Shown here: piece after piece, positions 3,071 to 63,559 of the stretch
Position numbering within the stretch: position 1 is the stretch's first letter
Layout: each line of letters begins with the position of its first letter
Origin: Leptogorgia sarmentosa
Lineage: Eukaryota
DNA: 64,000 nucleotides
Assembly (NCBI GenBank): GCA_964658305.1
Contig: OZ210885.1
Location: forward strand, 21,824,001 to 21,888,000
Direction: 5' to 3'
Notes under the pieces: generated by a model
Seen by the model: the letters and a program-made list of their open reading frames with translations, nothing else
What the model was told of the DNA's origin: nothing
Database searches by the model: none
Made by a program: the position numbers and the translations under genes

Positions 3071-3902
3071 TCATTGAACTGAACAGATGAGGCGAGTGTT
3101 GTTGAATAGAATACTATTTCAAAAATCAAGTATATAGAGTGTATAAAAAAAATGCAATCCAAGTTTAAGGCTTCATAACCAAAATAATATAGATTTCCAT
3201 GTCTTAATTTTTAGTTCATGTTTTAGCCCTATCTTTTTTCTACTCAATAAGTGGTCGATTATGACTTTTTAGGCCATTTAGGACCTCAAAATAAGTGATT
3301 TACTGCAAGCAGTAATTTTTAGATGCTTCGAATTCGATGTCCTTGAAGATATTATCGTTGCATGCGAATATTTTGTTTGATATATTTTCGTGAAATAATT
3401 TTGAAATCTTAGGCATCATGCCACAGCTCACTCACAGTTTTTTGTAACAAAAAGTATTCAGGAAGTTTTAAGATTGTTTCGAATAGCTTTCCCGGATTGA
3501 CAAGTCCCAAATTTGACGACCGTTTGGCGTAACGTACGTAAATACCGGCAGATACAGCTTGATGCTTTACATGGAAATCATGAACTAATAAGAAGAGTTG
3601 CACAGGAAATGCAACATCGAAATGATTTGTGTGTGCTGAGAAATGACGGCCACCATTGAATGATTGTAACCAACTAAAGTTAAATTTTTAACTAAAAATA
3701 CATACATGCAGCAACACCTCACTCGTCTTAGGGCCTATTTATGTGATCCCACTTACCCGGAATTCAATGGAGCGTAAAATGATTTTGAGGTATTGTAATA
3801 AGTCATAATTTATGATTTGAAGAAATGTTTAACTGCTGCATGGTTGCTCAAGATTTTGTTCCGCTGAAATATCAAACAAAATGTTGTTGGGCATGAATTT
3901 TT

Positions 3903-6900: not shown

Positions 6901-7634
6901 GTGGTCACCCTTTGATATGTTGGTCCGACTGTGGAACAAACTTCAAAGGAGCACAAGGTTACCTAATAGAGGTTTGTAGAAATTGGGATAGAAATAAAAT
7001 CGAAAGAGTCCTGTCCAACGAGTTTTCATGCCAGTTTGAGTGGCAGTGGAATATTCCTCGAGCAAGTCATATGAACGGAGTTGTTGAGAGCCTAATTAAG
7101 TCAGTACGACAAGCCATCGCTGCTACATGCCAAAATCGACCATTTACAGAAGAGCAATGGAGAACGAGCCTTGCAGAGATCGTTTATTTGGTAAACAGTA
7201 GACCTCTTTACCCAAGTTCATCGGAAGTATGGGAAGAACCACCCATTACCCCGAATGACCTCATCATTGGCCCGCATCTACCTTTACCAGCGCCGGAATC
7301 TGAAGATCGAGTTAATCCGAGAAACCTACAGCGCAGTACACAGCAGAGAGTTACAGAATTTTGGCGTGCATGGCAGAAGTATTTCGCACCGACCCTACTC
7401 CCTAGAAACAAATGGTATCGAGCGAGAGATAACTTGCAAGTAGGAGATATCGTTTTAGAATTGGAAGGGACACCCAGACGTAAATGGAAAATGGGCGTAG
7501 TAAAAGAAGTATTTCCCGGAATAGATCAGTTGGTAAGAAAAGCGAAGATCAAGACTGAGACGGGTGAATACTATAGACCTATTCATAAATTGTGCCTCAT
7601 CGCCACAAATCAAGAATTGGGTGAACATCGGTAG
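3903..7634 (+). pseudogene. pol: BEL/Pao pol polyprotein (protease, RT, RNase H, integrase)
   Basis: Motifs IDSGS; KVRLVFDASA, GPN, DIRKMF, YVDD; WDPIG, HGFGDG, RLELMG; H-H-C-C zinc finger, IDMFG, SDCGTNF, GVVES, LVNSRPL, RPIHKL. In-frame stops at 5763 and 6147. Confidence 0.92.
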
Positions 7635-11554: not shown

Positions 11555-12980
11555 TCAATATTGATAATAATTTAGAATGATAATATTTGCATTATTAACA
11601 TGCTCACGTGATATAAAAACTTCAACGATCATGCAACGTTCTATATTTTTGAAGTATAATAAAAATGAATGTTTAGCTGCAATCGCTGTATGCGAAAAAC
11701 AATGCAACAACATAGTTGAAAGGTTACTCATGGTAATGCTCTGAGGATTTGGAGTCGTTTGAAGCATGGAATCGCTGTTGTTTGGGCGATGGGATGTCGA
11801 TGACCTGCTCAAAACATTTGACATTTTTCGTTGATGATCGTGAGAAGCCGTTTTGTAGGAATCAAGACTTTTAAGATTTTTATGGCCACTCAACAGAGCT
11901 ACGTAATTGGTGGGGATATCTGCATCCATTAAACGGGAAACACAAGTTTTTCTGACACTGTGGTTGGCGATGTTGCCTTTGATGCCTGCCCTTTTCGCTG
12001 CTTTTGAGAGAAATTTGCCAATTTCGTTTTTGATACCACACAGGATTCTCTGGCTTTCTTTTGTGATTGATAGCGAGGAAAAATGGTGCTTCGGGGGCTT
12101 TCATTAGATCTGGTTGACGTTTCAAAAACTCTTTGTATAATCTTACAGGACAACGCTCGCCATTTGTGGCTTCTGCAGTGGGATTAAATGCTCGTTGCTG
12201 GCCATTTCCATTGTGTGTTTTTGACCCTCGTTCAAACTGCCAAACTAAAAACTGACCACCATTTGCTTCGTCTCCACACAGTTTCACATCGCCCCATTTT
12301 AGACGTCAACTTTCATCACGTGCTCGAAACCCAAAATGAAGGGAAAGCAGCCACCATACAGTGCGTTGCAGTGCTTCAGGATTGCATCACCAAACTCGCC
12401 GAGGCAGAAAAGTTGGTCTTCTTTGTCCACTGTAAGTTCACGAACAGCTTGTGGTCTATTTCCCTTAGCGTTTTCTCTTACCACCTCTTTCCTTTTCACT
12501 GACAACACTTCTCTAGCTTTGTTGAACTCTTGATCTCTGAAGAATTTTTATACTCTTTTATTTATTCTTATTTTAAACTCCTGATCTCGGGGAATTTTTA
12601 TCATTAAGATAACGCTGAATGCTTCTTAAAAAACATGTCAATGTGTTAGGTTCATACACTGCACCATTTTTTCTTTTTGGCTTGCATGAAGAAACGACGG
12701 ATATGAATGTTTAACTCTTCGGCTGGATGCTTTCGATATCTCGTAGTTCGTTTTCGTTTTCAAAGTATCTTTTTCAGATATTCATGTCATATTTGGGTTT
12801 TTCAGGGTGTTTTCTGGACGCTTTGATAAAATGAAATCCTGAATGTCGCTCGTAACTTCTTCACGATTTGTATTGTCAATATGACTTGTTGAAGCCGAAA
12901 TTGGCTTGTTTTCTACGACGTTCACCTCGTCTGGATAATAGGAATTCACTCTCATTATGAGAGCTGTCATCAGAGTCCAT
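11555..12980 (-). pseudogene. Crypton-type tyrosine recombinase (DUF3504/ZMYM-C-like), frameshifted
   Basis: YR catalytic motifs across frames: FGFRARDE (Arg), ERGSKT, CPVRLY, FFLAIN, NHSVRKT (HxxR), SGHK, LDSY (Tyr). Also KGNRPQAVREL. Confidence 0.8.
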
Positions 12981-15099
12981 TTCGTAGGCTTATTGAAATT
13001 TACATGGCTTTTTAATTAACTTTAGAAATTTAAACGGAGTCTTTGTAAAACAATTAAGTCACTAAAAAATAACACTTTTGGACCACGGTCAAGATTTTGT
13101 AAAAAGCCACCCACTGCTGCAGGCAATCAGATTGCAGAAAATCAAAAAATATCACTAGGCATGCACAAATAAAAAAATTAATATATATATTTTTCCCTCT
13201 TAACTGTTTTTTTTGCAAAGCGCATGTTCATAACTTCTTTCCTGATTAATAGGTATTCACAAAAAACAAAAACGCAGTAATGCATACACTATTACTTTGG
13301 CAAAACTGATCAAAAACATGCTTAAGTGCAAGGGGGATCCGAGTGAAGGATGCAGAAGACCAGATGGCTGCTTTTAGGCAACATCAGTGTTGATGTCTAG
13401 TTTGAAGGCTAGGCTATCAAACTCTGGCCCATGAAATTCAACTAATCATCTGCGCAGCCAAAGTACCCTGCCACTATCTGCAGCTGCAGAACAAAGGAGA
13501 CTATTTAACTTTGGTAACAGGGTTTCATCAACAAGCATGTCCGGGAAGCAAAAAGCAGCTAAGAGGCGAAGATTACAAACGTGCACATTAAAATTTTGCT
13601 GCCTAACCTCAAAAGATGCAGACAGACCACCCAGTAGTGTGAAAGAAAGAACAGAATTGTTAAATGCAGGGCTTGGAGATTGCAATATCTCCTTTCCTCA
13701 GAATGGTGTCCCAGTGTATGATACACTAACTGAGAAATTTCCACAACTGAATGAAGCTGGAGGCTTTGATATGCTGTTGTACCAGAGGGGTGGTGGTGAA
13801 GACAGTGGCTTCCATATCATCAAACCTCCACACACCCCAAGTCACCTAAAGAACCTATGTGGTCAGGCAAAAATATATATAAGGCCAGTCCAGCAAGATT
13901 TGAAATTAAATGTGGAAGCTGCTACTCTGCTGCCAATGAAGGTATAGTCTATAATGTTTTGTAACTAAAGCATTTGTCATGTATAGCATATAGTAGTCAT
14001 CCAACAGCATAGGAGTAGCGGGCAATCACTCAAAGGTTATGGGAGGTGTAACAGTGTCACTTATTATGAAGTACAAATTGTTAGTGCGATACAGTACTGT
14101 GTATTCCTGATGTACATGCTTAGTAACCACTAGCTTTGTATTGGCAATTAGTTGGAACTTGGTGAGTAACAAGTGTACATAATCTGTTTGCTTGTCTACT
14201 ATGTACATGTGTGGGTGTTGGCATGTGGCAACTGATTTACTTAGTTAATTCAACTTTTTTCATGTTACAAACATACTTGACCCTTCACTCCTGCCCATAA
14301 AGCCGTTGTAAATGAACTGTTCCTTTGCAATGTTACTGATTATAACATATCTGTTCACTAGACTAACAGTTGGTGTTGCAATGATGAAGATGCGTCAGCA
14401 CCATCAGGAGAATCATGTGCAATCTGATTCAGATGAAAAACCAGAGAAGGTAAGTACATTTTGCATTTCACAGCTGCGGATTTATCAGTTGAACTAGTGC
14501 ATTAATAAGGTCAACAACTTTGCATGCTGTCTGCTACATGGTATCTATAATTATCAATTGCAACCCCCCCTAACTAATTGTGTAATTAGTAATTTACACT
14601 GATAGTATGACCTACCCTTGCTTTACTGCCAATTGTTAATTTTTTACAAAGACAAACAACACTTGAAGAAATAATAAATGACAGGTACTGCATATTAAAT
14701 ATTCATGAAGAAAACACAATGAAAATCATGGCAGTGTTAGTGGTGTTGTATGTGACAAAATTTCATGTTAATTTACACAACTTTAGCTTTCTTAGATTAA
14801 ACAATATTGATTTAAGATTACTTCGCCAATGAACTCATAAACATGGGTCATTTTTAAGCCATTTAAAGCTCTTGTAGTTATGATTTATTAGTTATAAAAC
14901 ATTTGGGTTGTGCCTCATGTTTTATATGTGATAAAGCTCTGCTTGTGTGCTTTAAATATATAACACAAATACATGTAATTACACATATTAAGGGCTGGCC
15001 TGATAAGCAGAGGCATTGTTCCTCCCACCAAGAGGAGGCACCCACCATGTTGTTTACATTTTAGACAATGAATATTTTGATTCCATGATATTTTGTTTT

Positions 15100-15485
15100 A
15101 ATGGACCAATTGCATAATGGACAAAATTTTTAAAAAGTTCGAAATAGTACAATTCATAACAATAGCGTGAAAGGGCATCCCAAAGTTAGTAAAATGGCAA
15201 AGTTTGGGTCGAAATGTTGTAAAATCTAACCGTGCGAAATTGGCAAATTTGTATACTTTTGTATTACGTGCGTGAATTGCTAACTAAATTAGTTACTTCA
15301 TTTCGCACGTAATACGAAAGTATACAAATTTGCCAATTTCGCACAGTTATATTTTCCGTATTTTACAACATTTCGCACCCAAACTTTGCCATTTTACTAA
15401 CTTTGGGATGCTCTTTCACGCTATTGTTATGAATTGTACTATTTCGAACTTTTTAAAATTTTGTCTATTATGCAATTGGTCCATT
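15100..15485. mobile_element. Palindromic foldback MITE in an intron
   Basis: AATGGACCAATTGCATAAT...ATTATGCAATTGGTCCATT; the two arms are near-complementary over most of the length. Confidence 0.85.
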
Positions 15486-16065
15486 GAATTATTAATTTAC
15501 CTTTCTTGTTACAATTTTTTGATCATGGGGACTTGTACCTGGACTGGTTTTAAGTAAAGCATGTTGGTTTTAAGTAAAGCACCTTGTCTTCTTTTTTGTT
15601 TGCATTCACTCAAATATTTCACAAGATGGGCAAAGTGATACTAACGGCCAAGAATCAAGTAGCATAAGCATTTTGAGGGAGCTTTGCCCTGATGCAAGTA
15701 TCGCAGACATCACCCATGCAATATCTGTCTCAAATGGAAGTGTTGATGTGGCTGCTCAACAGCTGTTGACAGGTACTGTGTAAAATGAGGACTATGGTGT
15801 CCGTGGAGAGACATCAAGATTTTTAACTTATTTTTGCATTAATTTGCATGCAATTTACATTTAATTTAATTTGTTTTTAAATTATATCTTAATGTTTTTC
15901 TTTTTCGTTCTTGATTATTTTAAAAACAATTCAATTCAATTGGTTTCATTTCAAAATTTTAATATGAAAATAACCTTGTCCGAGAAGAGACAAGACATTC
16001 ATTAACGAGTGTAACCGCTGACCATTGCATGTGCATTGGGGGTTCATGTTCATCTACCATTCAAA

Positions 16066-17277
16066 ATGGCCTCCCAAGCAAACGAATGGAAGAACGACGA
16101 GGACTTGAGATTTGAACTGGAAGCCTTAGTGAAGAAAGCATACAAGAGGAGTGAAATTATTACTGTTATGAGGAAAGAGTTCCCACAGTATGCATGGGGC
16201 TGTATAAAAACACTTGATCGTCGACTGCACCATTTCAACATCAAGTATATAGATTACAACACTCCTTTGCAAGATGTGAAAGACGCAGTTCAAAAAGAGC
16301 TTGAAGGACCTGGTAAACTTCTTGGGGTACGAGCAATGACAAAGAAGCTTCGAATGGTCCACAATATCAAAGTGCCTCGTGATTTGATAAACAATGTGAT
16401 GTTTGAATATGACCCAGATGGTTTGGCAGAGAGGCAGCCGTGCAATAAAGACAAACGAAAGAAAGGAAACTTTGTCACTCAGGGTGTTAACTGGGTTTGG
16501 AGTTTGGATGGGCATGACAAATTAATGGGGTTTCAGAACTCAACATTCCCCATTGCATTGTATGGTTGTTATGATACGGGATCCAGAAAAGTATTGTATT
16601 TAAAGGTCTGGACATCCAATTCAAGGCCTGAACTAACTGCTAGATGGTACTTTGATTATATTTTTGAAGCAAGGAAAATTTCAAGCATGCTGCGACTGGA
16701 CAAAGGTACAGAAACAGGACTCTTAGCTAGTATACATGCATTTCTACGTAAGGAGCATGGAGATATGGCCCCTGAAGACACTGTCCATTTTGGTAGTTCC
16801 ACCTCCAACAAAATTGAACGATTCTGGAAAGAAATACATGAACGCATGGAGAAGTTTTTCAAGCGTCAGCTGCTGGAATTGTTGGAAAGAGGACATTACA
16901 ATCCTGAAGATGAGGATGATAGAAATATGTTGTCTTTCATATACATACCTATTGTCCAAAGAGAAGTAAATGTTTTCATACAGTTGTGGAATAACTCAAG
17001 AACCAGACTTCAGAAAAAGACATTAATGCCTGATGGTATTCCAAATTATATATACAGCAATCCAGAAGAATATGGCTTAGTTGATAAGGGCTGGGAAGTG
17101 TCTCTAGATGACCTGCAAGCAGCTGCTAAGGTTTCAGGGGTTTTAGCAGTTGAGCAAGACTACATACCAGCGAATTTTTCAAGACGATGCCATGATGTTG
17201 TGCCAGAGCCTGAGAAGATACCATCAAAGGATGCTGCAAGGTTTTATTTGATGTTGCGTAGAGAAGTAAGGCAGTAG
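16066..17277 (+). CDS. Integrase-core DDE transposase (IS3EU-like), intact, 403 aa from first ATG
   Basis: N-terminal HTH-like region (KTLDRRL); WSLDGHDKL (D), YGCYDTGSR, LRLDKGTE (D), SNKIERFW (E), LWNN. No stops. ATG in caaaATGg context. Confidence 0.9.
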   Translation: MASQANEWKNDEDLRFELEALVKKAYKRSEIITVMRKEFPQYAWGCIKTLDRRLHHFNIKYIDYNTPLQDVKDAVQKELEGPGKLLGVRAMTKKLRMVHNIKVPRDLINNVMFEYDPDGLAERQPCNKDKRKKGNFVTQGVNWVWSLDGHDKLMGFQNSTFPIALYGCYDTGSRKVLYLKVWTSNSRPELTARWYFDYIFEARKISSMLRLDKGTETGLLASIHAFLRKEHGDMAPEDTVHFGSSTSNKIERFWKEIHERMEKFFKRQLLELLERGHYNPEDEDDRNMLSFIYIPIVQREVNVFIQLWNNSRTRLQKKTLMPDGIPNYIYSNPEEYGLVDKGWEVSLDDLQAAAKVSGVLAVEQDYIPANFSRRCHDVVPEPEKIPSKDAARFYLMLRREVRQ

Positions 17278-17555
17278 GTTAGCACTGTATGGTAACTGGG
17301 TAATCAATACCCTTCATTAACTGACAGATTCAGGTTGTTTATATTGTGTTTTTTTTTCTGAAGTGTAAAACTTTCTAATTATCAAAAACTACAAAAAAGA
17401 AAGTATTCACAATAACATAAAACTCATTTGCTGCAATATATACATAACTTGCAGTTCATAACTTATAACTCTTTACAGATAATATATTGTTTGAACATGA
17501 ATAAGAATATGAATAAGAAAGTTAGTTTCTAAAACATTTGATATGAACTAGATAC

Positions 17556-18908
17556 CTATTTTTTGGAAGAAATGTGATACTTAGGATCATCCTCTTTTAA
17601 TCCTAACATGTTGCAATAAATGCTGCACTCATGGATTTCAAAAAATGTTTCTATAGCATCAGTAGAAAGGTTACCGATGCAGAAATTCAACTGGTTGGCA
17701 CTTGTTAATACTTTGCTTGCTACTTCAGGATCATATAATTGATAACCTGTTCCTTGAATGTCAACAAGTAAACATTCACCTTGGCTTACTTGATAGGAAT
17801 AATGCATCAATGTTTCTGCTTTCTTCGTGATGGTGTCATTACTGCTTTCACTTGTTGCACAAGTGTTGCCAGTATTATTGACATACTTGGTGAAGCTGCC
17901 CTCCAGATACCTCTCAATTGTAACAAATGATGCATCATCATCATTATCATTTTTTATTTTCCCAAAAAGCATGCTATCATAAGAAAATGTCTCACCAAAA
18001 GTTTCTGGAACATTTCTTTGCATCTGAATAGCAATGTTTTGGGCCAATGTATGCATCTGGACCTGTTTTCTAGCATGCTCTTCTTCTGTAAGATTGAGAA
18101 GCTTCATGTCTTCCAAGGCTTTTTCTTTATACTTCTTTAATACCCACTTACCAGACAATTTCCCATCAATACTTTCACACTTGTAAGCCTTTCTGAAGCC
18201 CCCTTCAGCAAAACTCTCACTCTCCACTGCAAATGTCATAGTTTTTGCTACAGTCCATCCATCTTTGATATCAAAGCCTTCAATCTCTACTTGCACTGTA
18301 TCACGTTTCACAGGCTTAATTAGCTTTCCCATTTTTAACATTGTTGCCACTGACAAAGAAGAAGGAAAGGATTTATGTAGTTTTGAATCACTGGACTTCA
18401 TTGGTTCAGAGGCTCTCTGTTCGGTATGGTTAGACTTGGTACGTTTTTTAGGTGGGGGTTTGTAACTAAATGGCACTGATTTTTCATCATTTTCGTCTGA
18501 GTCACCAAAAGCTTCATCAACAGTATATTGCTTGTGGATGAATCGTACGAAAATTGTGCCATTTAAATTCTTGATTTTGTTCAGATTTTCGATAGATGGT
18601 CCTCGCTCAGTCTCCAGTATATCACAATCAAAATCTTTCATGTTAAAACCAGCAATGCATGCCCTTCTCACAACATCAATAGTTGCTGGTGCACACATGT
18701 CTTCTTCCAAAACATCCACTCTTTTCAATGGCCCCATTCGTGCATACTTTTGTGAAGATCCTTTAACTTGAGCTGATAATCGCTGAATGGTTAATTTTTT
18801 GGGTAAGAGCCGGTCTTTACCCTTCCCAAGTTTATTTTTGTCCGTTTTTCTTGTTCGTTTTGCTGCCATAATCTTCTGGTACTTTTTGAACTCGTCTTCG
18901 TCCGCCAT
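17556..18908 (-). CDS. Alpha-kinase (eEF2K/MHCK/TRPM-type atypical kinase domain), intact, intronless, 450 aa
   Basis: FAEGGFRKAYK, WVLKKY, Q-x-x-x-x-A-Q, IERYLEGSFTKYVNNTG, HYSY, LLVDIQG, LYDPEV, GNL, FF..HEC..YC..LGL (Zn ligands). Confidence 0.93.
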   Translation of the reverse strand: MADEDEFKKYQKIMAAKRTRKTDKNKLGKGKDRLLPKKLTIQRLSAQVKGSSQKYARMGPLKRVDVLEEDMCAPATIDVVRRACIAGFNMKDFDCDILETERGPSIENLNKIKNLNGTIFVRFIHKQYTVDEAFGDSDENDEKSVPFSYKPPPKKRTKSNHTEQRASEPMKSSDSKLHKSFPSSLSVATMLKMGKLIKPVKRDTVQVEIEGFDIKDGWTVAKTMTFAVESESFAEGGFRKAYKCESIDGKLSGKWVLKKYKEKALEDMKLLNLTEEEHARKQVQMHTLAQNIAIQMQRNVPETFGETFSYDSMLFGKIKNDNDDDASFVTIERYLEGSFTKYVNNTGNTCATSESSNDTITKKAETLMHYSYQVSQGECLLVDIQGTGYQLYDPEVASKVLTSANQLNFCIGNLSTDAIETFFEIHECSIYCNMLGLKEDDPKYHISSKK

Positions 18909-19845
18909 GTTTCAGGCTTTCAGCTTAATGCCGCCCTCGAGATGCAATGGTCAGCGGTTACACTCGTTAATGAATGTCTTGTCTCTTCTCGGACATAAGG
19001 TTATTTTCATATTAAAATTTTGAAATGAAACCGATTGAATTGAATTGTTTTTAAAATAATCAAGAACGAAAAAGAAAAACATTAAGATATAATTTAAAAA
19101 CAAGTTAAATTAAATTTAAATTGCATGCAAATTAATGCAAAAATGAGTTAAAAATCTTGATGTCTCTCCACTGACACCATAGAGGACTGTGTACTACATT
19201 ATTCTTAAACAACATGAGTGTAGGGTGACCCAAATTACAAAAACAACATGGTAAACAAACTCAACATGGTATTATGTACATGTCAGGAACCTAAAGCTAA
19301 TATGTTTATAAAGCAATTTTATTTTTAGACGAAGTTCAAACCATAAATGTTGTTGCAGACCGTGATGATGATTCACCACTGCCTTTTGCATTTGATTATG
19401 ACGATGCATATGATGCTTCCTCTCCATCAAGTGCCTTGAAACAGTTCCAGCAGAACAACGTTGATGAAGACAGCGCTGCCCAATGTATATCTGTGAGCAG
19501 AATGGAGTCGCTCAGTTCAGAAGAGACATACTCGGAATTTACAAGAACAAAAAAACAAAACTTAGAGTCAAACCAAAAATACATTTTGAGGAGGAAGGTG
19601 CTGTCGGTAATGGTCCTGTGCGAGAGTTCCTTGCCAATGCTGTCAAGACCATTGAACAGGGGATACCTTCTACATCATCCAAACCACTGCTTTTTTTAGA
19701 AGGCGAAAAAGATCATCTTCTTCCTATACATGACCAATCTCTTTGCTTAACTGGGACATTCAAGGCTCTTGGTTCAGACGGTCAAGCTGATCGGTCATGA
19801 ATTTTGGAGCTCCCTCAATTATATTATATTCCTAATAGCTTAATT

Positions 19846-20703
19846 ATGGCTACAAAGAAATTAAGAGAAGAAAACGATCTTTTACGATCGGAGATCAAAG
19901 AGTTAAAGAACCAACTATACAAGATAAATGAAGATTTAAAAACACAACAAACTACTGCAGCATCAAAGCCAGACAGAACCGCTGAAGCAAAACAGGCAAA
20001 AGATACGATCAAACGAACGAACTCTGAGGAACGAGCAGAGGCTGTTGTTTTTATGAGCAAACAATATGATGATCTAGAAGTATTCCGTAAGCAAGCGACG
20101 CAAGATATTCAACAGATCACAAAAAAATTGGATTCAATCAGTAAAAATTGCAATGAGATTACTGAGGTCATCGAAGCGACTGAACAATATAGCCACCAAT
20201 ACAACATTAAGATCATGGGCGTACCGCTATTAAACAAGAAAGAATCGGCAGAAACTACAACGAATCTGTGTATTAAGCTGTTTACGGCTATGGGCGTAAC
20301 TGATGTATCCTTACAGGATATAGACATTGCACATCGCGTACAATCTAGAAGACCTTCACAAAATTCCAGCCCAATTATATGTAAATTTGTCCGTCAACTT
20401 GCTAAAGAAAGGATTATGTCGGCTCGGAAACATGCATTAGATAATATCACGCCTGAACAGCTTGGTATTGAAATAGCCTATCCCTCAACTACACGAATTA
20501 GCATGTTTGACCATTTGACACCACGTCTACAAAGCCTTCTGTATGAAACAAAAAGGTATAAAACGAGCAAGGGTTATAAGTTCTGCTGGGCAAGAAATAG
20601 TCAAATTTATTTAAGAAAATCTGATGACACTGGAGTAATCCGTCACTGGAGTCATCAAGACAATCTTGACAATATCTCAGCTAAGTACTTTATTTTTCTT
20701 TGA
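19846..20703 (+). CDS. LINE ORF1 (coiled coil, RRM-like region, C-terminal domain)
   Basis: Heptad-rich N-terminus; EQYS..YNIKIMGVP, IDIAHRV, PIICKF, DHLTP, FCWARNSQIYLRK. Directly upstream of the APE domain. Confidence 0.85.
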   Translation: MATKKLREENDLLRSEIKELKNQLYKINEDLKTQQTTAASKPDRTAEAKQAKDTIKRTNSEERAEAVVFMSKQYDDLEVFRKQATQDIQQITKKLDSISKNCNEITEVIEATEQYSHQYNIKIMGVPLLNKKESAETTTNLCIKLFTAMGVTDVSLQDIDIAHRVQSRRPSQNSSPIICKFVRQLAKERIMSARKHALDNITPEQLGIEIAYPSTTRISMFDHLTPRLQSLLYETKRYKTSKGYKFCWARNSQIYLRKSDDTGVIRHWSHQDNLDNISAKYFIFL

Positions 20704-21182
20704 ATTTTAAATGAGTAGATCAGAAATCCATATTAATAGATCTATCCTGGCTCAATTACCTTTCTATGGTGTATATAGTGATGATGTTTTTATCGATCAC
20801 TGTACCAGCGAAAGATATTGGAACAAACTTACTAGTCTATATAATCTAGATGTATTCAATCTTAATATTGAAACAGACGCTGATATTAATACGGATCGAA
20901 ATGCAATGAGCAACCATATTAAATGTAAATATTATTCTCCAGAAAGCTTTACTAAAATTGAAAAGGATTCATACGGCTCAAGTGATAGCCGTTTCTCTTT
21001 TTTTCACAATAATGTATGTAGTCTATGCAGAAACTTAGATCATTTACAAACTCAAATATTGGATGAGCTTGATTTTTCATTTAGTGTAATAGGCATCACA
21101 GAAACGCGTATCAAACAAAACAATTGTAATGATTTCAACTATAATATTACTGGGTATCCATTTGAATTTGTACCAACACCTC

Positions 21183-21631
21183 TTATTATACATTTAAAAT
21201 TTATTCTCGTTCCTGATTGGTCAGAAAGCACCGGCTAATTGTCAGTATTCGGTATTTATTACGTATTTTCCGCCGATGACGTCATCAGCGTCCAATAATT
21301 ATTTTTTTGGATCGAACTTGCATCCAAAAAAAAAATTATTGGACTCTCTCGTGCCCAAGCCCTAGCGCTGTCAAAAGCTTGAAGCTAAAAGCGCGCGAAA
21401 AAACAAACAAACAAACAATGGCCTGTAGCAGATTTGCTTCGCTGAATGAAAGTGAACTCTCTTTTAAATGTATAATAAAACAATTATTGGATTCGGCTTT
21501 CGCATGATATCAAGAATTATTCAGACCTCGGTCAATGTTATCCGCCTCAGCTTCGCTTCGGCAGATAACATTGACCCCGGTCTGAATAATTCTTGATATC
21601 ATGCTCAGCCTCATCCAATAATTGTTTATTA
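21183..21631. mobile_element. Non-autonomous Crypton-like insertion in the LINE APE domain
   Basis: Splits FVPTPL / TAGGVGMY. TTATTA at both junctions. ~155-bp imperfect palindrome at ~21475-21630. Confidence 0.6.
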
Positions 21632-24538
21632 CTGCTGGAGGCGTTGGAATGTATATATAAAATAATCGATTTAATTATGTGGTCATTGAAAAGGCAATTA
21701 ACATAGCTTATCAAGCACTTTGGATTGAAATTGATATTCCAAAGAAAAGAAATATCATATGCTCAGTTATATATAGGCAGCATAATTTGCCTGAGGCGTT
21801 TCAAACATACTTTGAACAAAAATTAGAATATTATACCTCAAAAGGCAAGCATGTTGTTATCATGGGTGACTTTAACATAGATCTTTTAAAAATTGACCAA
21901 TGCAACTACGCACATAATTTCATGTTATCTTTACAAAGTTGCTCAGTGATCCCTAGCATTGATAAACCTACACGTGTCCACAGAAACTCATCCACGCTAA
22001 TTGATAACATATTTATTAATAACCCTGATAATATATTAGTTAGTGGAAATATAATATCTGATGTGAGTGACCACTTTTCACAATTTTGTATTTTAGATTC
22101 TTTAGCTAGCGTTAGACAGAATATTTTTAAACACAAATATCGTGACTACTCACAATTTTCCGAAACTTTGTTTAATAATGAGCTCTTAGAAATAGACTGG
22201 GAGTCGATTTTAATGAATTCATCAGATAACCCAAACAAGGCATTTTCGACTTTCTTTAATAAATTAAACAAAACTCTAAATAAACATGCACCGCTTAAAA
22301 CTATTTCAAAACGTAAATTGAAGCAATCAACCAAACCATGGATAACGAAAGGGATAAGACGATCAATAAGATTAAGAATAAGTTATTTCACTCTAATAAT
22401 AACACGAAATACAAGTTATATCGTAACTATCTTGTAACTTTAATTCGATCAAGTAAAAAGTTGTATTACTGTGATTATTTTAACTCATATTATAATAACA
22501 TGAGTAAAAAGTGGGAAGGAATAAGGGAAATATTAGGGCGCAATAGCAAAATTAAAAACAATATCAATGCTGTTCGACAAGATTCAAATGCCCAATTAAC
22601 ATTTGATCCCACAAAGATATCAAACATAATAAACCATCATTTCGCTTCTTGTGGCCAATGTCTAGCTGCAAAAATACCTCATTCTGAAAAACATTATTCA
22701 ACATATCTTCCTGACCTAAGCATGTATAATTCCGCAAATGCTTCCCAACAACAAGGGTCTTTTGCTTTTATCCCAGTTACAGCTCGAGATATTGAACTTG
22801 AAATTATAACATTACCTGCCAAAAAGGCTGAAGGCCTGTATTCGTGCCCTTATCGAATCTTAAAAAGTGCCCAACACGTTATAAGCAAGCCTTTAGCAGA
22901 TATCTTTAATTGCTCCATTGAAACTGGAATTTATCCCAGCAAACTTAAAATCGCAAAAATTATACCAATCTACAAATATGATGACGAAACTGACCCAAAT
23001 AATTATCGCCCAATATCTCTCCTATCCTCATTCAATAAAATTTGAGAAAATTATGTATAAACGCTTACAAAGTTATCTAGCTAAGAAAGAATTTTTCTGT
23101 GATTCACAATATGGTTTTCGTAAACAACATTCAACCCAACATGCTATTCTTGATATTATTAACAAAATTCAAGATAATATGGAGGAAAAAATGTACTCCT
23201 GTGGTATATTTATTGACCTAAAAAAGGCATTTGACACGGTTGATCATGATATTCTGTTGGGTAAGGTAGATTATTATGGTATCAGAGGAGTAATCAATAA
23301 CTGGTTTTCTTCTTATCTTAAAAATCGCACGCAAACTACTTCAGTCGGAAATTGTGTATCTAACAAAGAAACTACCTTGTGTGGAGTACCCCATAGCTCA
23401 GTTCTTGGACCTCTACTCTTTTTGATCTACATCAATGATATTTGTAAGTCATCTGAGATTTTCAAATTCTTTCTTTTTGCTGACGATACTAACTTATTGT
23501 ATGCCGATAAAGACCTAAAAATGCTTGAAACAGTTGTCAACACTGAATTAAAGAAAGTCTGTGAATGGCTTGCAATAAACAAACTCACCCTTAATATAAG
23601 CAAATCAAATTTTGTAATTTTTCGACCATATCAGAAGTCATTGAATTTTCATCCAGTAATTAAAATGTTTGATAATGATGCCAAACAATATACACCACTT
23701 GAATGCAAAGAATATGTTAAGTACCTTGGAATTATTATTGACTGTAACTTGAACTGGAAGCATCACATAAATTATATTACATTAAAGATTAGTAAAATTG
23801 TAGGAATCATTTCTAAATTGAGATATTATATTCCAAGTCATACCTACATATTTATAAGTCATTGATTTCACCATATTTAACATATGGTGTTGTTGCTTGG
23901 GGAAATGCTGCTAAAGTTCATATTCAAAAACTTCTTGTTTTACAAAAGCGTGCATTACGACTCATGAATTTTAAATCATTTCAAGATCACGCAATTCCTT
24001 TATTCCTTTCTACCTACATTCTTCCTGTAACTATGATCTATGTTAAGGAATCTGCTTGCATGCTATACGATATATTAAAAGGGGATGCGCCTGAAGCACT
24101 GCGTAAATTATTTACCAAAACGTCTGATTATCATAATTATGATACGAGAATGGTTTCAAATGATAACTTATATATCAATTCTTCTCGTCTGGAATTACAA
24201 AAGCGTTCATTTTCTAGAGTCGGTACTTTAATTTGGAATAGCATTGATCTCAATCTTTGCTCATCCCATAAACAGACTTTTAAATCTAAAATACATCAAG
24301 CTCTTTTAACCATACTTCAAAATCAAAATGACTATGTTGACGTACCCATGATAATTAAAATGCTGCCTAATGTAACCGCGATATAATTTTCAACTCATTA
24401 TAACTTTCTAATTACTCTCAAAAAGAATATATTTGTGTCATGAAAAATATTTTTTATTAAAAATTATCATAGCCAATTGGAATTTAAACTCTCACTCTGT
24501 AAATAATTTATTTTACTCCTTCTCAATATAAATCAGTT

Positions 24539-24574
<36 letters not shown>
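24539..24574. repeat. (TA)n microsatellite
   Basis: tatatatata run at the LINE / HECT-B junction. Confidence 0.9.
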
Positions 24575-24612
24575 AAAGAATACTTTTTACATAATAAATA
24601 TTCTTTTACTAG

Positions 24613-27071
24613 TTGCATGTCAACGCCAAGGGAGAAACAGATTTTGAAGGAAGTAATGATGTCCAAATGCCTATAAGTGATACCCCTTGTAGCAGTAGAC
24701 AAGAACCCCAGGCGGTTGTTGAGGATGAAACATCACTTTTGGTTTGGAAAAAACAGGAACTTCTTAAGATTTTTCCAAATGAGAGCAGTGAAATGATCGA
24801 AAATGCCTTACTGCAAAATGATTTGACAAGCGCAATAAATTATATTTTAGACAATCATGATCACAATGAAGATAATAAGGGTAAGTGATCTGACAAATTG
24901 GGACAGATATATTAGGGTTGTAGAGATAGAAGTGTAAACCAGCCCTTAGGTGATAAACAACAACAAAACACTTGTTGTGCACAAATCTTACGGAACTTAG
25001 TCCATTTCCAAGGTTGCCAGATCCAGGTGCAGAATTTCAGACTAATGAAATTCTTATGAAAGAATAAAAAATTTTTAATTTTAGGTGATTTCAAAAGCGA
25101 TGATTTATTTGAGATGCCTCTTTCTATGACCAAGGTTCGAAAACTCAATCCATTAGATGCCGTTAGTCAGTTTATCAATGACGTTTCTCTTACCCACATG
25201 CCTGAGATGGACTTGGTTATCTCCAGAGAGAAAAGTATGATTGCACAGTTGCTGAAGAAATACAAGGATCCAACTTTCAATATTTGTTGCCCTCTTAATG
25301 TTCAGTTTGTGTCATCAGGTGTATTCGAAATGGGAATTGATGCAGGTGGCCCAAAACGAGAGTTCTTTCATTTTCTGAATACTGAATTAGTCAGAGGCAA
25401 TTTCAATGGCATGCAAATTTTTGAAGGTGAAACTGGTCACCTCTTGCCTATAAATAATTACGAACTGATCTCTAGCCATTTTTATAAAATGGTTGGAAGG
25501 ATGATTTTGCATGCAATCATTAACAAATGCCAAGGAATTCCTGGTCTTTCACCTGCAATAGTCAGTTATGTTGTGAGTGGAAGTCGTGATAGTGTATTGG
25601 ACACACTTTCCATAAAGGACATACCAGATCCTTGTTTGCACGAAAAGCTTAATGAGGTAATTATTAATGTTGTAATTTTACCAAAGATGCAAATTATTGC
25701 ACTGGCTATATGTGACTGTAGTTCTATAATTAGGTAATTGTTTTAATGTTCTGTGTTTAAGCTTCTGACTTGTCCAGATGATCAACTTGGTCGATTTATG
25801 GACTCTCGTGAATCATGCAATCTGGTCGATGTGCTCATTGCTGGTGGTTTCCCGCACGTTGAAGTTTGTTCAAACACAAGAGTTCTTGCTTATGAGTGTG
25901 TTGTGCGATCTGAAGTAATTACCAAACGTCTGCCTGCTCTCGATGACCTCCGCAATGGATTGGTGTCTGAACATCACATGGGTCTTAATATACTTGAGAT
26001 TGCTCGTTTCCATCAAGAAGTGCAGTTGCTCATTTTCCCCCCGCAGCACAAGAGAATCATGTTGAAAGATCTGAAGCAACTTGTCATGTTTGAGGTTGCT
26101 AGTGACTAAGAAAAAATCAACTCAAAACGATTTATGGAGAAGTACATGGAAGATCTTGATGTTCGAGGTAATAAATTTTGAACAGCCTTATAGGCACATA
26201 CTAATGATATTTATTATTTATTGAAAATAGTTCAAGAGTTTTGATTGGTTAAGAGCTGTGGATGAAATCGTGATATCCGTTCTGTAGTTGCCCAAATTTG
26301 GAGTTGAAAACAAATATATGACATTATGACGTAATTTGGTCGTATATCGAAATTTATACGACATTATGACGTCACATTAATTTATGCTGCTTATGCCAAA
26401 AAAGTAGCATTCTTTCAAACGCTTATATTGCGTTGAAATAAATTTGTTTGATTTAATTTGTTTATGTTGAATTATTCTGACTGTGTAATGTGACAACAGT
26501 CTTACAGTAAGAATATTCTTTCCTAGTCTGATTGGCTTATTCAGTCTTGCAAACACTATATAATTGTTCCATTTTCAGCAACTTGCGTGTTCTTGTTTAC
26601 AATGCAAGGATTTACCCTACAAGTCCGATATATATAACACAAACCTCTGCCTTAATAATTCCTGATATCCTACGAGAACCGAATTCAATAATTGTTTAAT
26701 GTTTTAGGCCAGAAAAGCTTTTCTTCCTCATCCAAAATTTTGTTTGTATAGACAAAAAAATGAAGCTGAATATTCGAGGCTAGGCACTGAAGAATTGTAA
26801 GAATATCATGTAATTTTGTTACTTAGATGAACAAGATGAAACCTTGAAAGATCTTGTCCAGTTCTGGACTGCTTGGCCAGCACTTCCAATGTTAAAGGAT
26901 AAAATGGTAATTGGTTTCCTCCCCAGTGACTCAAAAAATCATTTGGCAACTACGGATACTTGCTTTAACAAGCTTATGATCCCAACAGTTCATAATGAAT
27001 ATGCTGAATTCATGAAATGTATGGACATATCTGTGTCAAATGCATTTCCACTTGCATTTGGAAAGATGTAA
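24613..27071 (+). pseudogene. HECT E3 ligase cargo gene B (5' end missing; CUE-like domain plus HECT)
   Basis: Exons 24613-24880 (LLKIFPN...AINYILD), 25085-25656 (EMGIDAGGPKREFF, FEGETGHLLP), 25762-26167 (premature TAA at 26107) and 26827-27071 (LVQFWTA, TDTCFNKLMIP catalytic Cys, AFGKM). Confidence 0.85.
26211..26700. mobile_element. Crypton-like non-autonomous insert in HECT-B intron
   Basis: Starts ttatt...tgattggtt and ends aataattcctgatatcctac...ttcaataattgtttaat, resembling the ends of the 21183-21631 insert. Confidence 0.45.
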
Positions 27072-27516
27072 ATCACGCGAACTTGACAAACTTTGGACTA
27101 TCTCAAGGTCTTGTTTCAAGATCTGAATGGATCTAATATTTAGTTACGAATCAGTTATATTGTTCATGTTAGGTTAACTTGCAATTTTATCAAATGGAAA
27201 GGTTGCTTTTGGGAAATTTTGAACCTGCAGATAAGGATATGGAACAATCTAACATTGATGCACACTTTACTAAATTGATAATAGTTGGTCTTTCACTTTT
27301 AAACTAGTTTTGTTAGCAAACAGTTAGAAGGTTTAGTATAGTTTTGTTGGTTTCCATTCGTATGCAAATAGTTTTGTTGAGATGTCTTTTTACATTCATG
27401 CACTCACCAATGTTCATTCAGTATGCAAGACAGACTGCACTACACATGTGAAATATATATTTAGTAATTATTTTTGCAAATAATTTAGTGATCAATATAT
27501 GGAGTGAAAGTGTTGG

Positions 27517-30166
27517 CTAGTCTTCAAGAAACTCTCTCATTAAATGCAAAGCTTCCAAATATAAATTGCAACCATGATTTCCATCCTCATCTAGTGGATT
27601 AATGACTGACCTTAAATGTTGCCACTGTTCATCGGTCAGATTTCTTTCAAATTCTGGGACTTGTACATCATTGCCAGCATTATAGCTTGGTACTGGGCCA
27701 TGATCATCAATTCCAAAGTCCTGCCAGTTTGTATTATCCCCAATAATACTTTCGATAGCACTATTTTGAGAATTGATCAAGGAGGTTACACCTGAATGCC
27801 ATAAGGACAGTGGAGAACGGTTACCTTCGGTGCTTAATGGGTGATTGTTCCAGTCCTGTACAAATTCGCCAAGTGCCCTGTTTATTCTTGGAAGATATAT
27901 GTAGTGAAGGGCCAACAAGTGAAGTTCATTAAGTGCATCTAATACTCCCTCATTTTCCAAATGGGAGAACAATCTAATATAATAGAACACAAGAACTCTT
28001 CGAAGGTCTGCCCAGAGGCGCTCAATCCTCTGGTTGTGCACACTTCTTCCTGTGATCATGCTGCCTCGGTTTGGTCCTCGTTCTGGATGGTGCAACATGA
28101 ACCGAGCAACATCAAAATTCTCAATTCCGAAATCCGAACGGACTCTTGAAGGCAAACCAAACTTTTGAACAGCACCTTGGAATAATTCTAGGACAGTAGC
28201 AGCATAATTATTAGGGGAGCACTCCAAATATACTATACATCTGCTGAAACCATCTATCCCTCCATGAATTACAAAACACCAATTAATAAGCTTGTGATGA
28301 CCATCAATATGCCTACATAACAAACAAAGTTCGACCATTTAAGATCATATTCACAGAGCAAAGCAATAAAAAACCATGAATGCAATAAAAATGTCTATTA
28401 ATCTTGGATTAAGTTATGTGGTAGAATTCCACTAATTCAAACAGCCAAGGAAAATGAAAATTAGTATTTCAATTCACATGGTTTTGGTGACCTTTCCAAT
28501 GGAGCTACATTATTTTAATCTCACAATGAACATTACCAAGATGAAAACATTATGTGATCCTTTTTGCAATACACATAAACAGTTACTGCATGGGCGAATT
28601 TACTGAGGTTGGATTGAACCTCCCTGAAATCTTTTCAACCCCTCTTATAATTGTTCAACCCCTCAAAATTTTGCTTTAGCCTTCTAATTTTGTTTGAAAG
28701 ACTTTGACATTCTTTTTGCTTCAAAGGGCCAAAGTGCAGCTTTCACAGAACATTGCATGCAGCCATGCACCCCACTAGAAGTTCTTCCATGAAAATCCAC
28801 CCTTGGTTTACTGACAGATGGTAGGTTTGTAGACCAGTTTTACCATGCCTCATCATTAGTGAACAACTGTTTTTTATCAACTCTTAAAAAAATTTGGGCT
28901 GTTGCACCCTGACTGTGCCCCTGCTCCTCAAAGTAGTCACATTGCGCCTTAGTGTGTTAATGATTCAGTTATTCAGTGAACACAATCATTACAATGACAT
29001 ACTGTATATTTATTATGCATAGCGTGTATAGACAGATCTTCAATAAAATGTAATGCACCAGTCAATTCCAGGAGTGACCACCCCCCCCCCTCCCTATTCA
29101 AAAATAGTACACTTTTTCTGCACAATTGCACTTAGATAAATAGTTTAAGTTTCTCGAGAAAAAGTTCTTAGATTTTCATTTTCGACAGTAGAATTTGCTC
29201 AACACTGCGCTGTATTTGCTGTAATCTCATATAATTTTTGCTAGCTTAATATTAAAAATAAACTGTCAAATTCCCCGGGGTAAATAGCAACCAAAACAAT
29301 GCCCAGCCCTTTGGGCCCTGCGGACGTTTTCAAAGGGCAAGTCCCCAACCCTGGGAATAATCTTTCAAGCAAATTCCCGGGGGTGTCCCGGATGGGGGTG
29401 GTCACTCCTGGAATTGACTGGCGCATATTAAAGAGAGTAATGTGCACGAAACTTACCACAATGCGTTGGGGCATGGAACATTGTAAACACGGCGTAGAAT
29501 GGCAACACTTCGCCTCATGGCACGACTCAAAGGGTCTACACCACAAATTGCATTTCTCACTTTCCATCGTTGAATATGTATATTTCGTTGCCTCAAGGCG
29601 CCCAATACAATCGTTTCACCAGCGTTCGGCAAAATCTGGAGAACCTCTCGAACAACATTACACAAATCAGTATGGGAAATTTCAGTAAACGTGTTTCGTG
29701 GCCCACTTGTATTGCTGACTGGTAAGCGGTAGTCATGGCGTCGTCGTAATATAGTTCGATAGCTCACTCCAATTTCCACAGCAACTTGAGACCAGCTGCG
29801 GTGTATCTCATGTAAGTTGGTCAAAGCATTTTGAGGAAGACTGTATCGTCTTCATCCTCTTTCAGCAACTCTCTCTAATGGGCACGTAAAACTTAGTGGG
29901 TTGACTAAATTCTCATTTCTGATCCAAAGCGCGTCGTAGCTATTGCACAATGACTGTAATTCAGACACCAAAATACCAAGATCTGTCTGAATTTGTCCAC
30001 CGTCGATTCGTTCTATTGCACGCTGGAGAAGTATATTTACAACATAAAAGCTGTCTTCCAGACGTCGCTGGATAAACTCAACCACGTTAATATTATCGCA
30101 AAATAATTGACGACGAGCCTCTGTAATTTGATTTGGAATATTTCTCAAGAAATCTTCGATGTTCAT
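27517..30166 (-). pseudogene. IS3EU-like DDE transposase B, two exons, one nonsense codon
   Basis: Exon 1 30166-~29457 (HTH SWSQVAVEIGVSYRTILRR; RRVYNVPCPNALW) has an in-frame TGA at 29852. Exon 2 28312-27517 has [55 protein letters not shown]. Confidence 0.9.
29053..29426. mobile_element. MITE in the transposase B intron
   Basis: TIR ATGCACCAGTCAATTCCAGGAGTGACCACCCCC / GGGGGTGGTCACTCCTGGAATTGACTGGCGCAT. Confidence 0.85.
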
Positions 30167-30297
30167 TTGAATTGAATACACTCTCCTATATCTATGCACT
30201 TGAATCACTGGTTTGAATGCCCTCCCCCCCCGGAAAATAAAGCAGCCTTCCGTCCACCTTATTGGTCATAAGATGAAGTAATACCTAGCTCGAAAAT

Positions 30298-50007: not shown

Positions 50008-50376
50008 ATTTTAATTGTTTTCAAAGTGTAAAATATTTTAATATTTAAAAATTTTTTTTAAAAAAAACTTTGATGCTCCCAATCAAGTCACGTGTACACA
50101 CGAAAAATTCCTCGGTGAAGGAAATCTTGGCATTCTGAGATATGGGATAGAAACTAAGTTTGATTATATTCGTATCGTATTCTTCACGCACAGAAGGTTT
50201 ATAATAGGGTTGGGATTAGGATCAAAATGAAGGAAAAATACATCGTCATGCACGAACGATATTAACAACCAAGGATTTTGCCCGAAATTCTGAAAGACAT
50301 TTTTCGATAAAAAGGAAATTTTTACCAAATGAGGAAGGAATTTTACTTCTTTGTGCTCATATAATGAATATTCAAT

Positions 50377-63493: not shown

Positions 63494-63559
63494 ATTTGAT
63501 GCGTCTGAAAATAGTGACCTGATGGGGAGTAGGGAGGAAAGAGTGAGAATTTTAATTCG

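What the first reader, a model, noticed from the sequence alone, without database searches (positions are those of the whole stretch)
15793..19181. Apparently intact 3.4-kb IS3EU-like transposon whose second gene is a complete alpha-kinase
Seen: ~240-bp TIRs, TAT..ATA termini, perfect 6-bp TSD GAGGAC, an open DDE transposase (D in LDGHDK, D in LDKG, E in KIER) and a convergent, open, intronless 450-aa ORF. That ORF keeps the alpha-kinase catalytic and Zn-binding motifs (GGFRKAY, KKY, KYVNN, DIQG, LYDP, H..C...C). Known: IS3EU elements have TAY..RTA ends, 6-bp TSDs and two ORFs; alpha-kinases are normally host signalling enzymes (eEF2K, ALPK1, TRPM6/7, MHCK). Inference: the two ORFs fill almost all the space between the TIRs, so the kinase looks like an integral transposon gene rather than a captured fragment. 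It could regulate the transposase, counter host silencing, or act as a selfish effector. I do not know of a described kinase-encoding IS3EU family, but could not search.
Basis: partly seen in the sequence, partly recalled or inferred. Interest (0 to 1): 0.92.

Follow-up and report, generated by a model that had tools for sequence, protein, structure and literature searches.

The report
Animal transposon carrying its own kinase
This is an intact 3.4-kb cut-and-paste transposon, likely from a coral-type animal, whose second gene is a protein kinase that travels with the transposase in many marine animals and may act on that transposase; the transposase-kinase pairing is already mentioned in print for fungal members of the same transposon group.

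Summary
Observation confirmed. 15793-19181 is an IS3EU element with TATGG..CCATA ends, 238/240-bp TIRs and a GAGGAC TSD. It holds an open rva_4 DDE transposase and a convergent open 450-aa alpha-kinase.

The kinase is the element's own gene, not a fresh capture:
- Relatives share contigs with matching transposases, with consecutive accessions in Paramuricea and Exaiptasia.
- The two proteins co-diverge (Mantel rho 0.68, p 0.002, 10 families).
- 87 of 91 scorable full-length relatives keep all 11 catalytic and zinc residues.

Novelty is limited. Kojima 2025 (PMC12730594) already states that rust-fungus IS3EU elements carry an oppositely oriented alpha-kinase. This scan found the pairing before on other DNA (13 notes; those shown are mostly fungal).

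Added here: a large animal family with an N-terminal domain predicted to be ubiquitin-like, often annotated 'TRPM6-like', and a weak predicted kinase-transposase complex (0.52 vs best control 0.00).

Best mechanism (about 45%): the kinase binds and phosphorylates its own transposase. Activity, expression and substrate are untested. New member of a known kind; interest 0.38.

The parts
15787..15792 (.). left target site duplication GAGGAC
   Evidence: sequence
15793..16030 (+). left terminal inverted repeat, 238 bp, begins TATGG; likely also holds the transposase promoter (inferred: ATG lies 35 bp inside its inner end)
16066..17277 (+). open DDE transposase, 403 aa, IS3EU/GingerRoot type (D148, D212, E251)
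   Evidence: (rva_4 E 4e-19)
17278..17555 (.). 278-bp AT-rich gap between the convergent 3' ends; no AATAAA on either strand
17556..18908 (-). open, intronless 450-aa accessory gene: basic N-terminus, ubiquitin-like domain, low-confidence linker, alpha-kinase
17583..18311 (-). alpha-kinase domain (residues ~200-442) with R239, K258, E332, D383, Q385, D393, N413 and zinc ligands H369, H426, C428, C432
   Evidence: (Z 24.7, rmsd 1.9 A over 213 residues to MHCK-A 3lkm; Z 24.5 to TRPM7 1ia9)
18534..18797 (-). conserved N-terminal domain (residues 38-125), predicted beta-grasp/ubiquitin-like fold, no Pfam match
   Evidence: pLDDT 91.8; best Z 6.9; top rows are ubiquitin-like and CIDE-N domains
18942..19181 (-). 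right terminal inverted repeat, 240 bp, ends CCATA; likely also holds the kinase promoter (inferred: ATG lies 33 bp inside its inner end)
19182..19187 (.). right target site duplication GAGGAC
   Evidence: sequence

Best explanation
This is an intact, likely autonomous IS3EU cut-and-paste transposon whose second gene, a ubiquitin-like-domain alpha-kinase, is inherited with the transposase and likely works by binding and phosphorylating that transposase to control when it acts. Shown: ends, TSD, two open ORFs, linkage and co-divergence in relatives, and conserved catalytic residues. Inferred: both genes are driven from the near-identical TIRs and so are co-expressed; the kinase is active; it docks on the transposase (weak prediction); phosphorylation tunes transposition (untested, direction unknown). 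I put the kinase being an integral gene at about 0.93, and its target being the transposase at about 0.45.
For: Linkage. The Paramuricea kinase CAB3984462.1 and a transposase piece CAB3984461.1, and the Exaiptasia kinase XP_020898264.1 and transposase XP_020898265.1, are consecutive accessions on contigs of equal length. Among listed members, transposase cluster P0125 shares 7 of 15 contig lengths with kinase cluster P0008, P0127 7 of 15 with P0013, P0123 6 of 15 with close kinases, and P0158 3 of 15 with P0022. Several shared contigs are only 3-10 kb. Co-divergence. Identities of paired proteins correlate: rho 0.58, p 0.0008 over 13 families; rho 0.68, p 0.002 over 10. The two trees share their main clades apart from one doubtful pair. 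Constraint. 87 of 91 full-length relatives that cover all 11 key residues keep all of them, among relatives mostly 30-40% identical to the query. 101 of 101 relatives of 380 aa or more have the N-terminal domain. Binding. ESMFold2 complex score 0.52 (0.52, 0.52, 0.51), best of 3 controls 0.00, graded 'weak support'; runs agree in at least 38% of contacts and partner pLDDT is at least 68. The mark was reached by 51 of 78 solved complexes and 2 of 108 mismatched pairs, but at 0.60 or under by only 5 of those 78 and by all 4 mismatches that passed; on eukaryotes by 39 of 65 solved pairs and 2 of 126 unrelated pairs. Precedent. Phosphorylation by a host kinase controls piggyBac transposase (10.1101/2022.09.26.509586, abstract). 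Alpha-kinases use extra domains to dock substrates (PMC2827801, passages).
Against: The complex pass is weak; the tool says such a pass is more often wrong than right unless the guess was likely beforehand, and 7 of 44 blind neighbouring gene pairs passed. No interface was given, so the docking domain is unknown. Kin share history, so co-divergence shows co-inheritance, not physical interaction. Linkage rests on contig lengths and accessions, not on relatives' DNA: orientation, TIRs and TSDs of relatives were not seen. Transposase clusters P0126 (0 of 15) and P0133 (0 of 6), and 4 of 5 kinase clusters tried, gave no match of 5 kb or more (partners were guessed and lists were partial). Other IS3EU elements in this window carry a HECT ligase instead, so a kinase is not required across the superfamily. 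Among near-identical copies, the listed differences show no purifying selection in the kinase (5 of 20 synonymous; transposase 5 of 10; 30 of the 40 listed differences fall in the ORFs and 43 more were not shown). That is expected after insertion but is no support.
Confidence: 0.45

Rival explanations
1. The kinase is an integral gene but acts on host chromatin or silencing proteins (for example histones), keeping the element expressed.
For: Cleaved TRPM6/7 kinase domains phosphorylate histones in the nucleus (PMC13143021, passage), and TRPM7 is the best-scoring solved relative (113.8 bits vs 89 for MHCK-A and 76 for eEF2K). Fungal IS3EU elements carry TET/JBP genes proposed to counter silencing (PMC12730594). 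A K[KR]x[KR] nuclear-signal-like motif occurs in 65 of 101 relatives against 41 in shuffles (maximum 53).
Against: No chromatin-reading domain was found in the protein. A nuclear signal fits the transposase target equally well. TRPM7 identity is only about 20%.
Confidence: 0.25
2. The kinase is an integral gene acting on host signalling, translation or immunity, as eEF2K or ALPK1 do, giving the element or its carrier cells a selfish advantage.
For: Catalytic conservation requires a substrate. Host alpha-kinases act in these pathways (PMC2827801, passages).
Against: It has none of the substrate-targeting domains of host kinases, and the eEF2K and ALPK1 scores are the lowest among solved alpha-kinases apart from their constructs. 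It does not account for the weak transposase-complex pass.
Confidence: 0.12
3. The protein is an obligatory structural partner of the transposase, like the second ORF of Harbinger elements (recalled). Its kinase activity is directed mainly at itself, as an assembly switch.
For: Weak predicted complex. A conserved Ser-rich segment lies just before the kinase domain (S184 97%, S186 91%). Autophosphorylation gates substrate recognition in TRPM6/7 and MHCK (PMC2827801).
Against: It overlaps with the best explanation and cannot be told apart here. IS3EU elements with a HECT gene have no such kinase partner (no second kinase hit in the window).
Confidence: 0.13
4. The kinase is a recently captured, passively carried host gene (a retrocopy of an ALPK or TRPM-type kinase).
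For: It is intronless. Databases call relatives 'TRPM6-like', 'alpha-protein kinase 2-like' or 'myosin heavy chain kinase D-like'. No tree with host kinases could be built here.
Against: The family has 491 clusters at 50% identity with E <= 1e-30. It has a family-specific N-terminal domain, co-diverges with the transposase down to ~33% identity, and is only 16-24% identical to solved host kinases. Morini et al. note that cnidarian 'TRPM6-like' entries are kinase-only mis-annotations (PMC13143021).
Confidence: 0.03

Closest known systems
TET+ IS3EU families of rust fungi, e.g. IS3EU-7_PSt, IS3EU-3_PCor, IS3EU-1_PGra (Kojima 2025, PMC12730594; passages, section 4.1 and one supplement row seen)
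   Same: 6-bp TSD, TAYGG..CCRTA ends, TIRs over 30 bp, and transposase and alpha-kinase genes in opposite orientations. By eye, of 14 Repbase IS3EU rows seen in the PMC10045372 supplement, only IS3EU-1_PGra has the WSxDGHDKL first-aspartate motif found here.
   Different: Animal host; compact 3.4 kb with two intronless genes (IS3EU-1_PGra is 9,258 bp); no TET/JBP gene; the kinase carries a ubiquitin-like N-terminal domain. The paper gives the kinase two sentences, with no analysis or function. Whether the fungal and animal kinases are one lineage was not tested.
IS3EU/GingerRoot superfamily (Repbase; Kojima and Bao 2023 PMC10045372, passages and supplement part 12; Cerbin et al. 2019 PMC6839031, passages)
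   Same: TA..TA termini, 6-bp TSD, integrase-like DDE transposase without an HHCC motif; known in corals, Hydra, molluscs and fish.
   Different: Neither paper's main text contains the word 'kinase'. TIRs here are 240 bp against 100-150 bp for GingerRoot. Repbase entries themselves could not be read.
Alpha-kinase family: TRPM6/7, MHCK-A, eEF2K, ALPK1-3 (Middelbeek et al., PMC2827801, passages)
   Same: Fold (Z 17.8-24.7), catalytic Lys and Asp residues, and C-terminal zinc site.
   Different: 16-24% identity, none of the host partner domains, encoded within a transposon, and a large multi-copy family.

Membership tests
IS3EU/GingerRoot DNA transposon | TA..TA termini (TAYGG..CCRTA in kinase-bearing fungal families) | tested here: met
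   TATGG..CCATA; definition
IS3EU/GingerRoot DNA transposon | 6-bp target site duplication | tested here: met
   GAGGAC on both sides
IS3EU/GingerRoot DNA transposon | terminal inverted repeats | tested here: met
   238/240 bp, 233 of 238 identical
IS3EU/GingerRoot DNA transposon | integrase-like DDE transposase, first D 100-300 residues from the N-terminus | tested here: met
   rva_4 E 4e-19; D148/D212/E251 conserved; motifs match Repbase IS3EU rows by eye
IS3EU/GingerRoot DNA transposon | falls inside the IS3EU clade in a transposase tree with Repbase entries | not testable with these tools
   Repbase sequences could be read in a supplement but not used as input
IS3EU/GingerRoot DNA transposon | several copies with different TSDs in the host genome | tested here: inconclusive
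   No genome is held. Contigs show an intact form and a 99-bp-shorter form in 3 of 4 runs. One contig in run X2 stops matching exactly at 19181 with 12 further letters. No second TSD was seen.
alpha-kinase (PF02816) | alpha-kinase domain by profile and fold | tested here: met
   116.8 bits against cut-off 21.3; Z 24.7 to MHCK-A
alpha-kinase (PF02816) | invariant Lys, two Asp, and His/His/Cys/Cys zinc site | tested here: met
   K258, D383, D393, H369, H426, C428, C432 align to TRPM7; kept in 92-100 of 101 relatives each
alpha-kinase (PF02816) | protein kinase activity | not testable with these tools
   needs an assay
TRPM6/7, ALPK1-3, eEF2K, MHCK host kinases | channel, Ig, heptose-binding, calmodulin-binding/SEL1 or WD40 partner domains (domain list partly recalled) | tested here: not met
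   450-aa protein with only PF02816 and a predicted beta-grasp domain
ubiquitin-like (beta-grasp) domain | beta-beta-alpha-beta-beta topology matching solved UBL folds | tested here: inconclusive
   Confident model (pLDDT 91.8). Top rows of both searches are almost all beta-grasp, but best Z is 6.9 (rmsd 2.7, 69 aligned) and no Foldseek E <= 0.001: the fold class is likely, the subfamily is not assignable

The most novel reading that the evidence does not exclude
One lineage of IS3EU transposons has carried its own protein kinase since before animals and fungi split, and uses it, docked through a ubiquitin-like domain, to phosphorylate its own transposase. This would be a transposon-encoded signalling switch, with HECT ligases filling the same slot in sister lineages. 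Many 'TRPM6-like' or 'alpha-protein kinase-like' genes annotated in corals, anemones and tunicates would then be transposon genes.
Probability: 0.25. Interest if true: 0.7.

Novelty: new member of a known kind. Interest (0 to 1): 0.38.

Why it matters
The transposase-plus-alpha-kinase layout is in print for fungi, so this is not a new kind of element. It still matters for two reasons. First, it is a compact, intact, intronless two-gene animal version, so a never-analysed question (what the IS3EU kinase does) can be tested directly with a kinase-dead control. Second, it points to a source for kinase-only 'TRPM6-like' entries in cnidarian annotations, which Morini et al. flagged as mis-annotated in a paper that does not mention transposons (PMC13143021: 0 hits for 'transpos'); I did not check that their entries belong to this family. 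If the kinase regulates its own transposase, that would be an unusual self-encoded control of transposition.

Tried and rejected
- Whole genome: none is held, so copy number and other TSDs could not be counted.
- Expression: no RNA holder listed, which says nothing either way.
- Runs X5 and X7 cover the element but not most of this site's flanks. A hole proves nothing, so this was not used.
- A second read-laying aimed at the ends gave no answer, which leaves other insertion sites open.
- Neighbour DNA of relatives: viral contigs gave no relative. Metagenome contigs gave 2 short loci with transposase only (1.6 and 1.1 kb, too short to hold the kinase). Genome contigs gave 2 loci with broken transposases and no kinase hit; L003 has about 4.6 kb downstream without a kinase, and L004 ends 1.3 kb after the match.
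- Longer or fused kinase relatives (880-2510 aa): none at E <= 0.001 (weak evidence). No host kinase sequences were obtained, so no host-versus-element tree was built.
- dN/dS between families: not possible without DNA. Differences among near-identical copies were uninformative.
- The pair P0645/P0029 (2,143-bp match) was discordant in the trees and is probably a length coincidence. It was dropped, along with P0230/P0042 and P0598/P0530, which are close to families that were kept. Matches under about 3 kb also occur between unrelated clusters.
- Homology between the kinase's N-terminal domain and the N-terminal ORFs of the window's HECT genes: not detected (hhalign probability under 1%).
- Pfam on the N-terminal domain: no family in more than 1 of 31 members. 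ESM Atlas: no usable hit. Viral fold library: nothing at E <= 0.001.
- Origin of the TRPM6/7 kinase from this family: considered because TRPM7 scores best, and set aside because PMC13143021 derives it from the ALPK2/3 ancestor with shared introns.
- Literature searches: 'IS3EU' (62 papers, 40 listed); 'alpha-kinase'+'transposon'; 'GingerRoot'; 'alpha kinase'+'transposase' (27, 20 listed); HECT/DNA transposon/encode/Repbase (37, 20 listed); alpha-kinase/expansion/cnidarian; transposon-encoded kinase terms; 'alpha-kinase'+'IS3EU'. Only PMC12730594 links the two. I found no description of the animal family in these searches, but Repbase reports, Dfam and Kojima's 2019 review were not available, and long supplement cells were cut.
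Full report
1. Observation. The element runs 15793-19181 (3,389 bp), starts TATGG, ends CCATA and is flanked by GAGGAC on both sides. Its TIRs are 238 and 240 bp, with 5 mismatches and one 2-bp indel. ORF1 (16066-17277, +, 403 aa) is an rva_4 integrase-core transposase. ORF2 (17556-18908, -, 450 aa) is an alpha-kinase. A window-wide scan for such ends with equal 6-bp flanks finds only this element, a second IS3EU at 56128-63812, one marginal pair and TA microsatellites. Each ATG lies about 35 bp inside the inner end of a TIR, so the near-identical repeats probably supply both promoters (inference).

2. Setting. The window is transposon-dense. The closest named relatives are from the octocoral Paramuricea (kinase 82% identical), so the host is likely an anthozoan (inference). 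The element sits 19 bases after a GT donor at 15774 and before an AG acceptor at 19358; without it the intron would be 190 bp. The flanking exons lead into a frameshifted sequence that looks HECT-like by eye (no Pfam hit). It is interrupted by a LINE-like element, and a convergent rva_4 transposase lies at 27517-28338. The site may thus be the cargo gene of an older IS3EU, whose ends I did not find. Contigs from 4 public runs cover the element at about 99% or higher identity (for example 6 differences in 2,528 bp in X1 and 24 in 2,768 bp in X7). Three of the 4 runs also hold a form with a net 99-bp in-frame deletion in the transposase, matching the 370-aa protein P0122. The element is therefore young and has at least two forms. 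A second TSD was not seen.

3. The kinase. AlphaFold2 gives two confident domains joined by a low-confidence linker (mean pLDDT 83). Residues ~200-442 match MHCK-A (Z 24.7, rmsd 1.9 A, 213 aligned) and TRPM7 (Z 24.5), far above unrelated kinases (Z 8.4 or less). The invariant lysine, both aspartates and the zinc ligands described for TRPM7 (PMC2827801, passages) align to K258, D383, D393, H369, H426, C428 and C432. Of 101 relatives of 380 aa or more, 91 cover all 11 key positions and 87 of those keep all 11. Residues 38-125 form a second domain, present in 101 of 101 (73 of these and shorter relatives built the profile). It has no Pfam family. Folded alone it is confident (pLDDT 91.8), and its top matches in two searches are almost all ubiquitin-like/beta-grasp domains, at modest scores (best Z 6.9). 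The family is large: 131 hits, and 491 clusters at 50% identity with E <= 1e-30. Named members come from octocorals, stony corals, an anemone and tunicates, under labels such as 'TRPM6-like'.

4. Integral gene or passenger. Relatives' DNA was not obtainable, so I used accessions and contig lengths.
- Kinase and transposase accessions are consecutive in Paramuricea (CAB3984462.1/CAB3984461.1, the latter a 143-aa piece) and Exaiptasia (XP_020898264.1/XP_020898265.1).
- Six of 60 kinase representatives on contigs of 5 kb or more share an exact contig length with one of 65 transposase representatives.
- Among listed cluster members the matches concentrate in partner clusters: 4 of 5 (the window's own family, so not independent), 6 of 15, 7 of 15, 7 of 15 and 3 of 15.
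- Two transposase clusters (0 of 15, 0 of 6) and four of five kinase clusters found no partner among those I guessed.
- For the pairs, transposase and kinase identities to the query fall together (0.84/0.78, 0.76/0.67, 0.64/0.56, 0.49/0.34). The Mantel correlation is 0.58 over 13 families (p 0.0008) and 0.68 over 10 (p 0.002). The trees share their supported clades except for one pair linked only by a 2,143-bp match; deep kinase branches are long and weakly placed.
This is co-inheritance over a long time, which a recent capture would not give.

5. How it likely works. A catalytically constrained kinase kept beside one transposase lineage must benefit the element. My best guess is that it docks on and phosphorylates the transposase. 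The only direct hint is a predicted complex: score 0.52 in three runs against 0.00 for the best of three controls, graded weak. The runs agree in at least 38% of contacts, partner pLDDT is at least 68, and no interface was given. The mark was met by 51 of 78 solved and 2 of 108 mismatched pairs, but at 0.60 or under by only 5 of the 78 and by all 4 passing mismatches. Phosphorylation control of a transposase has precedent with a host kinase on piggyBac (10.1101/2022.09.26.509586, abstract only). Rivals are a chromatin or silencing target (0.25), a mainly structural partner role (0.13), a host signalling target (0.12) and a passenger (0.03). Activity, expression and substrate are all untested.

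6. What is known. IS3EU/GingerRoot elements have TA..TA ends and 6-bp TSDs (PMC10045372, passages) and occur in corals (PMC6839031, passages). Kojima 2025 (PMC12730594; passages, section 4.1, one supplement row) says that all TET+ IS3EU families have the TET/JBP gene between transposase and alpha-kinase genes, which lie in opposite orientations, with TAYGG..CCRTA ends. It is the only paper in the library with both terms and concerns fungi. By eye, the transposase here shares its first-aspartate motif with the rust element IS3EU-1_PGra, alone among the 14 Repbase IS3EU rows seen. My transposase profile also scores a locus with that motif (L003, 71 + 66 bits in two pieces) above the window's HECT-linked transposases (56-72 bits). 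This hints at, but does not show, one old kinase-bearing lineage. Kon-Nanjo-type genome work on Hydractinia says IS3EU structure and function are largely unexplored (PMC11934779, passages). PMC10853768 (passages) describes the ancestral IS3EU as encoding two proteins. PMC13143021 (passages) notes kinase-only cnidarian 'TRPM6-like' mis-annotations. The scan's own notes hold 13 earlier findings of IS3EU with alpha-kinase in other genomes (8 shown, mostly fungal, one invertebrate) and several with HECT. None matched this protein by sequence. These notes are unchecked and are not counted as support.

7. Verdict. A real, intact IS3EU element whose alpha-kinase is its own long-standing gene. It is a new animal member of a known kind. 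The additions are the animal family, its ubiquitin-like domain, co-divergence and a weak binding prediction. Interest 0.38; 0.7 if self-phosphorylation of the transposase in an ancient lineage were shown (probability about 0.25).

Noticed in passing
window 56128-63812: Second fully bounded IS3EU (TATGG..CCATA, TSD AATAGC, 20-bp subterminal repeats). It carries a HECT-domain gene on + (57946-59343, PF00632) and two tandem near-identical rva_4 transposase ORFs on - (60143-61612, 62228-63793): the same convergent layout with a ligase in place of the kinase.
   Followed up: partly
window ~13435-30265: The kinase element sits in a small intron of a broken HECT-like gene (by eye). That gene is also interrupted by a LINE-like element (19846-24386) and faces an rva_4 transposase (27517-29851, -). 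Possibly an older IS3EU with nested insertions; ends not found.
   Followed up: partly
window 16337-16444: A variant with a net 99-bp in-frame deletion in the transposase N-terminal region is present in 3 of 4 runs, at a depth similar to the intact form in X1; it matches the 370-aa protein P0122.
   Followed up: partly
window 46265-51961: A 1,142-aa open ORF with no Pfam hit (46582-50010, -) and a divergent SAM-domain ORF (50368-51612, +) lie between 73-bp inverted repeats. These sit inside a larger inverted-repeat pair (43088-52447) that holds a hAT transposase. Unclassified, apparently intact element.
   Followed up: no
window 15097-15488: Very high-copy palindromic MITE-like repeat just upstream (summed contig depth hundreds of times that of the flanks; long inverted arms).
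   Followed up: no
window 11555-12305 and 2641-3057: Tyrosine-recombinase fragment (PF00589), Crypton-like by recall. Near 1935-3057 are DIRS-like fragments and at 3897-7634 a BEL/Pao-like pol with stops (labels by eye).
   Followed up: no
window 38996-41146 and 43788-46013: Two hAT-type transposase ORFs, one open over 716 aa (DUF4371, Dimer_Tnp_hAT).
   Followed up: no
L003:716-1897 and L004:4095-6604: IS3EU-type transposase remnants, apparently intron- or stop-interrupted, in contigs of metagenome-assembled genomes labelled Bacteroidetes and Dysgonomonas; likely eukaryotic contamination of those bins.
   Followed up: partly
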